From Ancylonema sp. (Eukaryota), in the NCBI GenBank assembly GCA_050230475.1, contig JBFLGF010000138.1:47824-67823 (forward strand): a stretch of DNA of 20,000 bases. The letters are read 5' to 3'. Positions within the stretch are counted from its first letter, which is position 1. Each line of letters starts with the position of its first letter. This document shows positions 6,321-15,990 of the stretch, one piece after another. Both the position numbers and the translations under genes were made by a program. The notes under the pieces are model-generated. The model worked only from the letters and a program-made list of their open reading frames with translations, had not been told where the DNA came from and did not search any database.

Positions 6321-6723
6321 GATTCACGTGGAGGTTACCGCAACCGTGACGCAGCCGGAGCTAAGAACCTCAGAGGTAAGGGGTGGGGCGGCGGGGGGGG
6401 TGGGGGGTTGGGGTGCTAAAAGGCGATGCAATGGAGCACTTGGAACAAGGGAAATGTGAAGCTTGGAAAGTGTCGTGTTCTTTGTGTTTGGCGAAAGCGT
6501 ACCTACTCACTATCACGGGTGTTCATGTGGTGAGAGTCTGAAGTGTGTTGTTCGAGGATTGCAGGTGTCGATCACTTTCTACTTCACATTTTCGGAGGGT
6601 CCTCGGGAGACTCGTGGAGGTCGGGCGGTTCTCCGCCGAGTGACTCCTACCACCGAAGAAGAAGCGAAAACGATTTGTGCGAGATTCGACGCGGATCATG
6701 CTGTTGCAAGCGATGTCTTGTAG
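6321..6723 (+). pseudogene. 3'-terminal fragment (last two exons) of an acyl-CoA thioesterase gene (ACOT9-like double HotDog family)
   Basis: Exon 6321-6375 reads IHVEVTATVTQPELRTSE; intron 6376-6564 is GTAAG..GCAG; exon 6565-6723 reads VSITFYFTFSEGPRETRGGRAVLRRVTPTTEEEAKTICARFDADHAVASDVL*. This fits the recalled plant ACOT9-like C-terminal pattern (I.VEV.A.VT.PELRSSEVSN.FYFTF...V.P.TEEEA). No upstream exons are present in the window. Confidence 0.85.
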
Positions 6724-9470
6724 AGTTCTAGAAATCATCTCCGGATTAAGTTGCAAGAGCTTGAGTGGTAGGTGAATGCCGTATTTTCGGGAACTGCTAT
6801 CCCAAGTTCGAGTTGAATATGATGTAGATAAAGTTCTTTTCGCAATTTGAGAGATGATTGTGCGTTGTTGTGACATTCAAACGTGCACGGTTTGTAGCTA
6901 TGTGTAGTCTAGCGATCTTGAGTACTTCCGAGATTGTTTTTAGTATTTTCTGGCCGAGGCTGACTTGCTCCAAAAGAATTGGTGTGCAAGTGAGTGTCTT
7001 TACTTTGCTAAACACTAATGTTTCATGAGGCTGATTTACGACATTGTTGTCAATGTGTGGCATAATTCACTTTGAGCCAGTGACAATGTCGATGCGGTCA
7101 AGGGCAGGCCTTTTTTGTTGTTGATGGACAATTTGTCGAAGTTTGATACAATGTTGTTGGTGTATAGACATACGGAAGTCATTAAGCAACTTATCCGATA
7201 ATCAACTTTTTAGGGGCGTAGAAATGGACTTGGTGGTTTTAACATAAATGTAATATGGTCAATGTAAATGCGTGTACCGCCTTATTGATATTGTCATTGT
7301 TTTTGTTGTTTGTTGTTCTTGTCAGTGAAATGTAGACACGTCAATAAATCATGTCAAACGGGTCGATGTGTTGTTCATAGATGTACACTCCCGCCAATAA
7401 ATCCGCCCGACGGCGCCACGGGCCGTATGGCTTGCTCAGCGGGCGGATATACATAGCCTTTTTAACTCTTTAGTTCATGTGTTGTCAGATTTAATCACTC
7501 CACATTTATCGAATTGTATGCTATTTTGCTATGAAGTGCATGGTCCCCTCTACCGTAGTTGGTCCCGCTCTGCTCACGGATTTTGGGAGCCCCGCTCCGA
7601 GCCAGCTCGCGTGGGAGCTTGATCAGAGCCAGCTCGCACCCGCGACCCGCCTGGCAAAAACAAAACATCGAAATGCGACTAAGGTCAAAGCATCCCTGGC
7701 CAAAAAGGTAGTTATTTCGGGCCGTAAGTCCCGAACATAAACAATATGCGGCGACCATAGAACGGATTACGACTATGTTTTGTCTCAAGACCTTTCTGAA
7801 GTTTATTTTACTCGTACATTATAGTTGTTTGTTCGGTGCACTTATATTCGGTGAGGAAGTCCGCATGAACACCTCGCGAATGAGAATTTCATTATGAAAT
7901 CCCATCGGATGCAACAAATAACATGGTATAATGCATTCCAACAGATACACATTATACAGCGACTATACACGACTTATAACTTCTGATCTAAGCCTACTTT
8001 TCCATGCCTTTAAACAACTTTGTGTGTAACATTCATATGCACCCATTTTGCACCCACTTTGTCACCTCGAAATAGACCAGGTTATATTGTTACAAGACAA
8101 TGGCAGGCTTCGGATTTTGTTTGGAATATAGACTTATATGACCAATGCATTTTCGGATATGTATGCTTTTGAGACAAAGTACCCTCAACGACAATGGCCT
8201 CTAGCGTGATTGGCTCTTTTGGAATGAAGTATTTCGTTACTTTGTTAACGTGGACATTACAATCGTGTACAATGATGCAGTGTTGGTAGTTGTCTAGTCA
8301 GTCGAGAGGGCTAGCGGTTGAAGAATTGTTGACTTCCAATCTGAAGTTTAATAACATGGAGAATCCTTAGGCGCAAAATCGAGACGGGTCGCATTCAAGG
8401 AGAAAGTCGTAGAATTTCATATACCAAAAACAGAAAAGAACGGGAATAAAAAGATTCCGTGCGTCTTGGTGTTAATACAATGCCAAAATTGAAAACAATA
8501 TAGTACTAATTTGAGATGAACTCATTGAGGTACTGCTAAATGAGAGAAACATATAGATTTACGTGTCTGAGTGTCGAGAGTGTGTATGTCATTGTTTGGT
8601 GTTGTGCTGTTTGTAATTTTCTCCTTCTTTGGTGTGTCGACGGTTGACAATGTTTTCAAAATCTGCTAGTCTATAAAATTTCAAACCACCTTTCACGTTT
8701 CCTCTCCGAAAATTTGTCCGGATGAACCATAGTCTTTTGCTCTCAATCACTTTGACAAGGGAAAACGCCCTGAATTGTTCCCACGCGTTCCTATCGATAA
8801 TTGTGTACCCTGTGGTCCAAATGGTTCAATACCAATTTCATAATGTATGTTCCTGCTTGGTGCCATTTTAATTGAAAATCAGATTGACGTTCACGCATTG
8901 CCCTAATGTACAACTTGATGCAAAAACGATTACATCTCGCCCCCCCCCGCACGCATGTTGTGTCTCAAAATTTGTATGAGATATCCTTTTCAGGTGTCAT
9001 TTTCAGGTGTCGTCCAATACTTATAGGTCACGAGTACATGTAATAATGGACGAGCTTCAGTTTATACTCTACAAAACAACAAAATAAAACCAATATGAAA
9101 ACGCATACCCCCGATGTTACACTTAGTGTGAACCATGCAATTTGCATTTTGAATTAAAGGATGTATAGAACCATTAGAGACCAATATTTTTGTGCTGAAG
9201 TTCCTACAAATAATTCACGATCGCTAGGAAGTATACATTACATATGACGTAGTTCTTACAAAAGTAACGAGTATTTCTGGATGCAATGATCACAATTTCT
9301 ATCTCGATGACCTTACACTCGTTGTCATGCTCCAGTTGTGACCATTGTCTTTACTTCTGTTTATATGCAGTCGACTTCGCCAATTTAGATGCTTGACTAG
9401 ATTCATTTTCTTTGTGAACGTCAGAAAAATCCTTGTGTAAGTTTGATGCCCGCGAATATTTGCGGCATCG

Positions 9471-15282: not shown

Positions 15283-15990
15283 ATGGAGTCTCAGACAGAA
15301 TTGACAGACCCAAACGCGCTACTCTTCGTGAACGACTACGCTTTAAAAGACAACCATGATGTAGAATCGAGTCCCGAAACGTACCTAGATTCTGTACATG
15401 AGTTGCTCGACACTGGTGCGCCTGTTGGCGGCATTGGAATTCAAGCGCACCCAATCACCCCGGTAGCCTGGCATGTGTACAATGTTTTTCAAACGTTATC
15501 AAAAGCGGGACTCCCGATATGGTTAACTCAATTAGTCGTGGAGTCGGAGGACGAGGGGTTGCATGCCGACCACTTGGAGATGATGTTAAGGGTCGCGTTC
15601 GCACATCCCGCCGTTGAAGGGGTAGTGTTGAAGAGTGTTTGCACATGGGAGGACCGTGGGGGCATAGGTGGGAGAAACGCGCAGCTCGTCACGGGGGATT
15701 GGTCTCCTACTGAATCCGGAAAACGGTTGGAGGAGATTGTGAAGGAGTGGAGCAGCGGGAGGGTTTTGGGGACAATACCCGGCCGGGGATCATTCTCGTC
15801 GAGGGGCTTTTTGGGGAGGTATAGAGTGGCGGTTGAAGTAGACGGGATGTACAAGGAAGAGGATTTTGTTTTGGAGAGAGGAGAAGGACCAAAAGTGGTC
15901 GATATCGTGATTGGAAGCGCAAAGGTTCAAGACTTTGCAGCCGTCCTTGAGCGAAGTGTTGCACAAGATTTTTTTGGTATCAAGAAGTAG
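15283..15990 (+). CDS. GH10 xylanase-like gene, 3' half (second half of the barrel plus C-terminal beta domain); homology starts at 15292, ATG at 15283 comes from the insert
   Basis: DPNALLFVNDY, GAPVGGIGIQAH, GLPIWLTQL, ADHLEMMLRVAFAHPAVEGV and F..RGFLGRYRV are plant GH10 C-terminal motifs. Uninterrupted 235-aa ORF ending TAG at 15988-15990. Confidence 0.92.
   Translation: MESQTELTDPNALLFVNDYALKDNHDVESSPETYLDSVHELLDTGAPVGGIGIQAHPITPVAWHVYNVFQTLSKAGLPIWLTQLVVESEDEGLHADHLEMMLRVAFAHPAVEGVVLKSVCTWEDRGGIGGRNAQLVTGDWSPTESGKRLEEIVKEWSSGRVLGTIPGRGSFSSRGFLGRYRVAVEVDGMYKEEDFVLERGEGPKVVDIVIGSAKVQDFAAVLERSVAQDFFGIKK

What the first reader, a model, noticed from the sequence alone, without database searches (positions are those of the whole stretch)
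6321..15291. GH10 gene split mid-exon by a 9-kb gene-bearing insertion with no recognisable transposon ends
Seen: removing 6321-15291 gives ...GPGVITRMFQ-QTELTDPNALLFVNDY..., which fits the family spacing MFxxAxxLDPxAxLFVNDY with no loss or overlap. The insert is flanked by CAG/CAG, which is either two original Gln codons or a 3-bp target duplication; the frame is preserved either way. It begins inside another gene, carries an intact antisense gene plus intergenic DNA, and has no TIRs, LTRs, poly(A) end, TC..CTRR ends or transposase that I can find. Inference: a recent DNA-level transfer of a genomic block (templated break repair, circular-DNA reintegration or an unrecognised capture element) caused gene fission and exon shuffling. 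An assembly or sequence-construction artefact cannot be excluded from the sequence alone.
Basis: partly seen in the sequence, partly recalled or inferred. Interest (0 to 1): 0.9.

Follow-up and report, generated by a model that had tools for sequence, protein, structure and literature searches.

The report
Copied gene block splits xylanase-like gene
A 9-kb block that likely has a second copy elsewhere in this plant-like genome sits in the middle of an exon of a worn-down xylanase-like gene; it was likely pasted in during repair of a broken chromosome rather than by a transposon, which is a known way for plant genes to move, and it could have given each half of the broken gene its own start or end (untested).

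Summary
The split is real. The GH10 halves join with the family spacing (111 of 111 homologues) only if both CAG codons are kept, so there is probably no target duplication. Contigs from public reads bridge each junction (73 and 34 letters on the short side), all from one sample. In the deep run the insert has 1.7-1.9 times the flank depth. A second copy runs on past 15287, and two runs take different alleles inside it. It is therefore best read as a duplicated block, roughly 0.5-1% diverged. It starts 18 codons before the last intron of an ACOT9-type thioesterase and carries an intact cytochrome-b561-like gene. Its right end shows an 18-bp skip between 2-bp repeats, 4 bp from the junction, which is a repair scar. 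Helitron, TIR and LTR ends are absent. Best reading: copy-paste capture at a double-strand break, a known class (41 of 56 rice cases). A circular intermediate is still open, because there is a possible second seam near 15065. The GH10 had already lost its nucleophile Glu. The 3' half gains an in-frame ATG, but expression is untested. Ordinary mechanism, neat anatomy.

The parts
5137..5307 (+). GH10 gene, exon A: end of a CBM_4_9/CBM22-like module. No earlier exon was found in the window. ATG at 5137 is a possible start; an AG at 5143-5144 is the alternative.
   Evidence: tblastn with 7 plant homologues; spliced model
5527..5860 (+). GH10 exon B, strongly diverged but open
   Evidence: (32% identity to angiosperm homologues)
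6181..6320 (+). GH10 exon C, 5' part (HYDVNNEMLH ... MFQ); acid/base Glu kept
6321..15291 (.). The inserted block (8,971 bp), likely a second copy of a donor locus not seen here
   Evidence: depth and branches; junction spacing
6321..6375 (+). Last 55 nt of the penultimate exon of an ACOT9-type (HotDog) acyl-CoA thioesterase; out of frame with GH10
   Evidence: 15 of 18 identical to P0132 residues 365-382
6376..6564 (+). GT-AG intron of the captured thioesterase; homologous gene calls begin their shared stretch at the same place
   Evidence: P0121, P0122, P0125, P0127
6565..6723 (+). Last coding exon of the thioesterase; AATAAA at 7343 and 7396 downstream
   Evidence: (4HBT in full-length hits)
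7552..8020 (.). High-copy repeat DNA inside the block; passenger, not the block's ends
   Evidence: depth peaks; 22-nt inverted repeat 7552-7573/12500-12521
9471..11570 (-). Intact four-exon cytochrome-b561-like gene (exons 11570-11473, 11111-10760, 10396-10216, 9919-9471; 359 aa)
   Evidence: PF03188 22.9 bits against a cut-off of 23; spliced model
15065..15068 (.). Possible internal seam: a deletion in this copy, or a circle-closing joint
   Evidence: X1 contig ends at 15064; X3 record fits 14414-15068 then runs on unlike for 332 nt
15253..15276 (+). 8-bp hairpin, shared with the second copy; not a Helitron end
15283..15292 (+). ATG in frame with the GH10 3' half; 18-bp skip relative to the second copy between 15287 and 15288 (GA repeat); 1-nt overlap (C, 15292) with GH10
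   Evidence: loose end behind 15287, compared by hand
15292..15990 (+). GH10 3' half (232 codons, open); nucleophile Glu replaced by Gln (CAA at 15529)
   Evidence: PF00331 E 3.4e-9

Best explanation
A 9-kb block that likely has a donor copy elsewhere in the same genome was likely copied into a double-strand break in an exon of a degenerate GH10 gene by homology-poor repair (strand invasion and copying with template slips, finished by end joining), with no transposon involved. Shown: both junctions exist in reads. The halves fit with no codon lost or duplicated. A second copy shares the sequence to 15287 and then continues. This copy lacks 18 bp of it between two GA dinucleotides, 4 bp before the junction, and overlaps the GH10 by one base. 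Inferred: the break fell between two Gln codons. One end primed copying inside the donor's thioesterase exon. Copying ran through the b561-like gene and its upstream DNA, probably jumped once near 15065 and again at 15287, and was joined to the other end. The donor stayed in place. The copies have since drifted by about 0.5-1% (roughly 0.4-3 million years on plant rates recalled from memory). Likely outcome: the full-length GH10 mRNA is lost. The 5' half would end in 73 out-of-frame residues and the thioesterase's 3' end; the 3' half has a borrowed ATG; the b561-like gene is a passenger duplicate.
For: Spacing 33 in 111 of 111 homologue motif pairs matches the two-Gln join. Junction-bridging contigs: X1 6248-7643 and X2 15258-18121. 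X2 contig depth is 113-127 on five flank pieces and 164-247 on eight insert pieces, a length-weighted ratio of 1.7-1.9. The X2 contig over the right junction starts at 15258, exactly 30 letters before a branch, and a contig of at least 255 letters leaves at 15287. That loose end holds GAGTCTC again 16 letters on; the chance is about 0.0015 for a set 7-mer in 24 places. X1 and X2 carry different alleles at 7463, 10868, 10909, 9213, 9421, 9972 and 11145. No TE ends and introns retained. This matches the published class: 41 of 56 rice insertions had no TE, microhomology under 10 bp and mostly precise breakpoints (PMC3615480, section 10). Microhomology deletions and local primer-template switches are end-joining hallmarks in Arabidopsis (PMC10923293, passages).
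Against: The donor locus itself was not read: only 30 letters of one loose end are shown. The donor branch at the left junction is not among the 6 of 14 loose ends listed. X1 contig 6248-7643 crosses the left junction with no break, although a donor branch would be expected there. In X1 the insert depth is only 11.1-13.7 against 8.8-11 on the left flank. The tool warns that contig depth is not a copy number. All bridging contigs come from one sample, which may be the one assembled. No empty site was seen (no joint; none among 15 of 88 shown). The seam near 15065 fits a circle as well as a deletion. Which repair pathway acted cannot be told from one junction.
Confidence: 0.66

Rival explanations
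1. Circular intermediate. A donor segment holding promoter, thioesterase, b561-like gene and spacer formed a circle, closed at the seam near 15065, opened inside the thioesterase with loss of its middle, and integrated. The ATG at 15283 would then be the thioesterase's own start.
For: The X1 contig ends at 15064 and the X3 record (another study, about 96-98% alike) leaves at 15068, while 15069-15287 is still at about two-copy depth in X2. The left end is in a thioesterase exon and the right end may be at a gene start: GC rises from 0.30-0.34 to 0.46-0.52 over the last 100 nt. Only 13.6% of the window is coding. The permutation test is from PMC7188851 (sections 3 and 6).
Against: No other thioesterase sequence lies in the insert, so more than 1 kb must have been lost on opening. 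A plain deletion in the copy explains the seam. Head-to-head genes explain a gene start upstream of the b561-like gene. Thioesterase N-termini differ among homologues, so 11 codons cannot be assigned. No joint 15291 to 6321 was found. The seam rests on two contig ends.
Confidence: 0.17
2. Capture by a Helitron or other element whose ends have decayed or are of an unknown type.
For: An 8-bp hairpin lies 15 nt before the right end, and gene-fragment capture is typical of Helitrons (search listing).
Against: No 5' TC, no CTRR end, no A/T or T/T target and no TIR (definitions from PMC11417382, passages). The second copy runs on past the end, so the hairpin is donor sequence. The end region is at about two-copy depth, not many-copy. 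Similar hairpins occur at about a dozen places in the window (17 overlapping hits).
Confidence: 0.05
3. The block was moved, not copied: it sits here on one haplotype and at the donor site on the other, with these flanks present on one haplotype only (for example sex-linked DNA).
For: A 2:1 depth ratio fits this too, and the genome-wide single-copy depth was not measured. Both runs break at 6246/6248, as a heterozygous site would cause.
Against: It needs at least 6 kb on the left and 2.8 kb on the right to be hemizygous. Copy-paste needs no extra assumption.
Confidence: 0.05
4. The block is spliced out as a giant intron, so a GH10-like protein is still made (nested genes).
For: The captured donor site at 6376 (GTAAGG) joined to an AG ending at 15298 or 15307 keeps the frame; 8 in-frame GT/AG pairs exist.
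Against: The insert's own ends are GA...CT, not GT...AG. The 6376 route adds 18 foreign residues, skips the natural acceptor 189 nt away and a likely poly(A) region, and uses an acceptor without a pyrimidine tract.
Confidence: 0.04
5. Assembly or construction artefact, or halves of two paralogues.
For: The window differs from both read sets at about 0.2% of flank sites with an odd spectrum. The right bridge has only 34 letters on the short side. The sample may be the assembled one.
Against: Independently assembled read contigs cross both junctions, and the right one includes the 18-bp skip. The halves meet to the codon. Both halves sit on very long branches (2.5 and 4.1 changes per column), as expected of one fast-evolving gene (placement unsure).
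Confidence: 0.03

Closest known systems
Non-collinear gene insertions by double-strand-break repair in rice (PMC3615480; section 10 and passages read); the 'patching gaps' model it cites (Wicker 2010; not held, known only from the citation and recall)
   Same: Gene-bearing block, highly similar second copy, no TE signature, microhomology under 10 bp, precise acceptor without deletion.
   Different: Here it landed in a coding exon; donor and ancestral empty site were not read; the host is a non-rice plant-like genome with no close protein in the databases searched (best about 45% identity).
Repair-mediated duplications by synthesis-dependent strand annealing (PMC2671141; abstract and section 7 read)
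   Same: Microhomology, small deletion or filler at breakpoints; no poly(A); exons and splice sites copied.
   Different: Those are up to 619 bp and within 5 kb of the donor; this is about 9 kb and the donor is not in the 20-kb window.
Polymerase-theta end joining and capture of foreign DNA at breaks in Arabidopsis (PMC10923293; passages)
   Same: Junction scar of microhomology with a local template switch.
   Different: That work concerns T-DNA at Cas9 breaks and microhomology of about 2-3 bp; here the final overlap is 1 bp and the pathway is untested.
eccDNA-mediated duplication (PMC7188851; abstract and sections 3 and 6 read)
   Same: Insertion-type duplication of similar size (about 20 kb there); a possible internal seam here.
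   Different: The defining permuted order was not shown, and the two outer ends are not adjacent donor sequence.
Chimeric new genes from DNA-level duplication in rice (PMC3673630; passages)
   Same: Duplicated segments recombined with target exons.
   Different: No expression or selection evidence here, and the captured exons are out of frame with the 5' half.

Membership tests
Break-repair insertion duplication (rice type) | Highly similar donor copy elsewhere in the genome | tested here: met
   Branch and loose end at 15287, depth ratio 1.7-1.9 in X2, two allele paths; the donor's place was not seen; X1 ratio is weaker
Break-repair insertion duplication (rice type) | No transposon ends or long homology at the junctions | tested here: met
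Break-repair insertion duplication (rice type) | Microhomology under 10 bp at the junctions | tested here: inconclusive
   Right end: 1 nt, plus a 2-nt repeat at the 18-bp skip. Left end: donor flank not shown.
Break-repair insertion duplication (rice type) | Precise acceptor, confirmed against an empty orthologous site | tested here: inconclusive
   Protein spacing says no loss; no empty allele found
eccDNA-mediated duplication | Circularly permuted order relative to the donor | not testable with these tools
   No genome held; only 30 letters of a loose end are printed; seam hint at 15065
Helitron (HLE1) | 5' TC, 3' CTRR, insertion between A and T | tested here: not met
   features from PMC11417382
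Helitron (HLE1) | Subterminal 3' hairpin | tested here: inconclusive
   Present at 15253-15276, z -2.0, but shared with a copy that continues beyond it
Helentron (HLE2) | Short terminal inverted repeats, insertion between T and T | tested here: not met
TIR transposon or Pack element | Terminal inverted repeats and target-site duplication | tested here: not met
   Best end match 8 of 15; the TSD join gives spacing 32 against 33 in 111 of 111
LTR element, LINE or retrocopy | LTRs or poly(A) tail; loss of introns | tested here: not met
GH10 xylanase (PF00331) | Profile match and acid/base Glu | tested here: met
   (E in window and in 107 of 107)
GH10 xylanase (PF00331) | Catalytic nucleophile Glu | tested here: not met
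   Q in the window, E in 107 of 107; PDB 7d89 has A at this column where 7d88 has E. The role of the residue is recalled, and the letter was not checked against reads.
ACOT9-type HotDog acyl-CoA thioesterase | Sequence match to members with the 4HBT domain | tested here: met
   8 of 10 hits are thioesterases or their last exon; 2 are unrelated repetitive proteins; only the C-terminal 70 residues are present
Eukaryotic cytochrome b561 (PF03188) | Profile score at the curated cut-off | tested here: inconclusive
   22.9 bits against 23, E 1.1e-4, on one exon's frame; the word search found no relative

The most novel reading that the evidence does not exclude
One repair event, possibly through a DNA circle, turned one non-catalytic GH10 gene into two working genes in a single step. 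The 3' half-barrel would be driven by a captured promoter and in-frame ATG trimmed to three codons from the junction, and the 5' half would end on the captured thioesterase's last exon and poly(A) site. This would be gene fission with both missing signals delivered by the same insert.
Probability: 0.1. Interest if true: 0.65.

Novelty: new member of a known kind. Interest (0 to 1): 0.32.

Why it matters
As a mechanism it is ordinary: break repair is reported as the main route of non-transposon gene movement in rice (PMC3615480). Its value is as a clean single example, outside the grasses, where the acceptor is readable to the codon and one donor junction to the base. It would matter more if RNA showed both halves expressed (one-step fission) or if the donor order proved permuted (germline circle reintegration in a plant). 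The host gene, a long-diverged GH10 with open frames but no nucleophile, may be a non-catalytic glycan binder worth a separate look.

Tried and rejected
No whole genome is held. No RNA holder was listed. Run X4 gave no useful cover, and X3 has next to no cover over the GH10 exons. No empty-site or end-to-end joint in X2 (none; one search shows 15 of 88 joints). The thioesterase exon drew blanks in Pfam, NCBIfam, PDB sequences, the word search, metagenome contigs and prokaryote genomes; only the index-free search named it. A 19-nt pattern from the right end found one metagenome locus, L001, which matches the window at those 19 letters only and is a chance hit. Rfam: 0 matches. The promoter scan is bacterial and says nothing here; no TATA[AT]A lies in 14900-15292. 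The Atlas gave no answer. Trees of the two halves (31 rows, chosen by hand from 107) cannot test paralogy, because no paralogue of this organism is held and both branches are long. The 22-nt inverted repeat 7552-7573/12500-12521 was considered as an internal Pack element; I saw no target duplication by eye and the right arm is not high-copy. Open frames in both halves are no sign of selection: only 0.2-0.5 nonsense changes are expected at this age. Script slips: one search translated in the wrong frame (corrected); one search started the second captured exon 2 bases late (corrected); one search's b561 exons were off by one (corrected). Only 6 frames of the insert were scanned in Pfam. No complex was folded. 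Earlier-findings look-ups by place and sequence were empty. Literature searches were made; I make no claim that such a case is unpublished, and I read no supplements.
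Full report
Setting. The window is eukaryotic and plant-like: GT-AG introns, and the best GH10 hits are land-plant CBM_4_9 plus GH10 proteins at 40-48% identity, none close. No genome is held, so the outside evidence comes from contigs of public runs: three runs of one sample (X1, X2, X4) and one metagenome of another study (X3).

The split. The GH10 has exons at 5137-5307, 5527-5860 and 6181-6320, and resumes at 15292-15990. 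A Riccia homologue maps residues 672-728 to the left and 734-916 to the right, and five codons fill the gap. The NEMLH-to-LFVNDY distance is 33 in 111 of 111 measurable motif pairs. Keeping both CAG gives 33; treating CAG as a target duplication gives 32. So the two CAG are most simply two original Gln codons and the acceptor lost nothing. The caveat is that this gene has indels elsewhere. The gene was already odd: both halves lie on very long branches, and the nucleophile column, Glu in 107 of 107 homologues, reads Gln. The acid/base Glu is kept.

Is it real? X1 has a contig from 6248 to 7643 that crosses the left junction with 73 letters on the GH10 side. X2 has a contig from 15258 to 18121 that crosses the right junction with 34 letters on the insert side. 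These come from one sample, which may be the assembled one, so they show that the molecules exist in that sample and no more. No empty-site joint was found (15 of 88 joints shown).

What the insert holds. It starts 18 codons before the last intron of an ACOT9-type thioesterase. The second exon finds 8 thioesterase records among 10 hits, the first piece is 15 of 18 identical to one of the family, and no other part of that gene is in the window. Then come repeats, an intact four-exon cytochrome-b561-like gene on the minus strand, and about 3.7 kb of upstream DNA. Retained introns show DNA-level transfer. There are no TIR, LTR, poly(A) or Helitron ends (definitions from passages of PMC11417382), and no frame longer than 187 aa inside the insert.

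A second copy. In X2, five flank contigs have depth 113-127 and eight insert contigs 164-247, a weighted ratio of 1.7-1.9. The tool warns that this is not a copy number, and X1 shows only 11-14 against 9-11, so depth alone is not enough. Two other signs agree. First, X1 and X2 follow different alleles at several places inside the insert. Second, the X2 contig over the right junction starts 30 letters before a branch, where another contig shares the sequence to 15287 and goes on for at least 255 letters. Modelling the depth shortfall as popped bubbles gives about 0.5-1.2% divergence between copies (rough).

The right-end scar. Compared by hand, the 30 printed letters of that second copy contain GAGTCTC again after 16 letters. 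The window copy equals the second copy with 18 bp removed between two GA dinucleotides. It then shares GTCTC to 15292 and passes into the GH10 (chance about 0.0015). It also removes the Helitron reading: the hairpin at 15253-15276 is ordinary donor sequence that continues. The left donor flank was not among the 6 of 14 loose ends shown, so left microhomology is unknown.

A possible second seam. An X1 contig ends at 15064, and an X3 record fits 14414-15068 and then runs on unlike for 332 letters, while 15069-15287 stays near two-copy depth in X2. Either this copy lost a stretch there, or the last 220 bp come from another donor position. If they come from upstream of the thioesterase, the insert is a permuted circle in the sense of PMC7188851 (section 3). 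This could not be settled.

How it most likely worked. Inferred: a break between two Gln codons was patched with a copy of a distant block, with one or two template jumps near one end, and the donor remained. This is the class reported for 41 of 56 rice insertions (PMC3615480, section 10). I put this at 0.66, a circle at 0.17, and element capture, a move rather than a copy, splicing-out and artefact at 0.05 or less each.

Consequences (predicted, untested). The 5' half would splice through the captured intron into 73 out-of-frame residues, stopping at 6731, with AATAAA at 7343 and 7396. The 3' half has an in-frame ATG at 15283 giving 235 residues, with an out-of-frame ATG 32 nt upstream. An in-frame fit has a one-in-three chance, and open frames are expected without selection at this age. 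A frame-keeping splice from 6376 to 15299 or 15308 is possible on paper but unlikely. So fission is shown in DNA only.

Verdict. A real, well-resolved insertion duplication of a known kind that disrupts a probably non-catalytic GH10. Interest 0.32; about 0.65 if both halves prove to be expressed or the donor order proves permuted.

Noticed in passing
whole window (e.g. 256, 1945, 5627, 5806, 11491, 11510): At 30 listed sites where both X1 and X2 differ from the window, 25 are A:T pairs in the contigs that the window reads as C:G or T:A, and none as G:C (only the best-supported rows are shown). The flank rate is 19 in 8,452. It suggests systematic errors in the window's assembly, or another individual with an odd mutation spectrum.
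   Followed up: partly
6217-6277: Both X1 and X2 contigs stop at 6246, and the next X1 contig starts at 6248, as an unresolved single-site bubble at 6247 would cause. Heterozygous site, error or a paralogue; unexplained.
   Followed up: no
6464: An X2 contig leaves the thioesterase intron here for at least 255 letters: a third related copy or a chance match.
   Followed up: no
5137-15990: The GH10 is a long-branch paralogue with open frames, no nucleophile Glu and a degraded substrate-binding stretch in exon B; a possible non-catalytic lineage. No earlier CBM exon was found upstream.
   Followed up: partly
1434-1530 (-): KH_6 domain exon (PF15985, E 1.1e-7) at flank-level depth; it resembles exosome subunit Rrp40 (name recalled). 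Other exons were not traced.
   Followed up: partly
3906-4363: 458-bp high-copy element with 31-nt inverted ends, 90% complementary, upstream of the GH10; MITE-like. A 21-nt piece of its end recurs at 13484-13504.
   Followed up: no
17664-17729 and 19856-19921: 66-nt inverted repeat around about 2.1 kb of high-copy DNA; a likely non-autonomous DNA transposon.
   Followed up: no
1348-1456, 2236-2356, 2452-2514, 2786-2839: Short tandem arrays of 7-20-nt units, including an AAAACCCT array.
   Followed up: no
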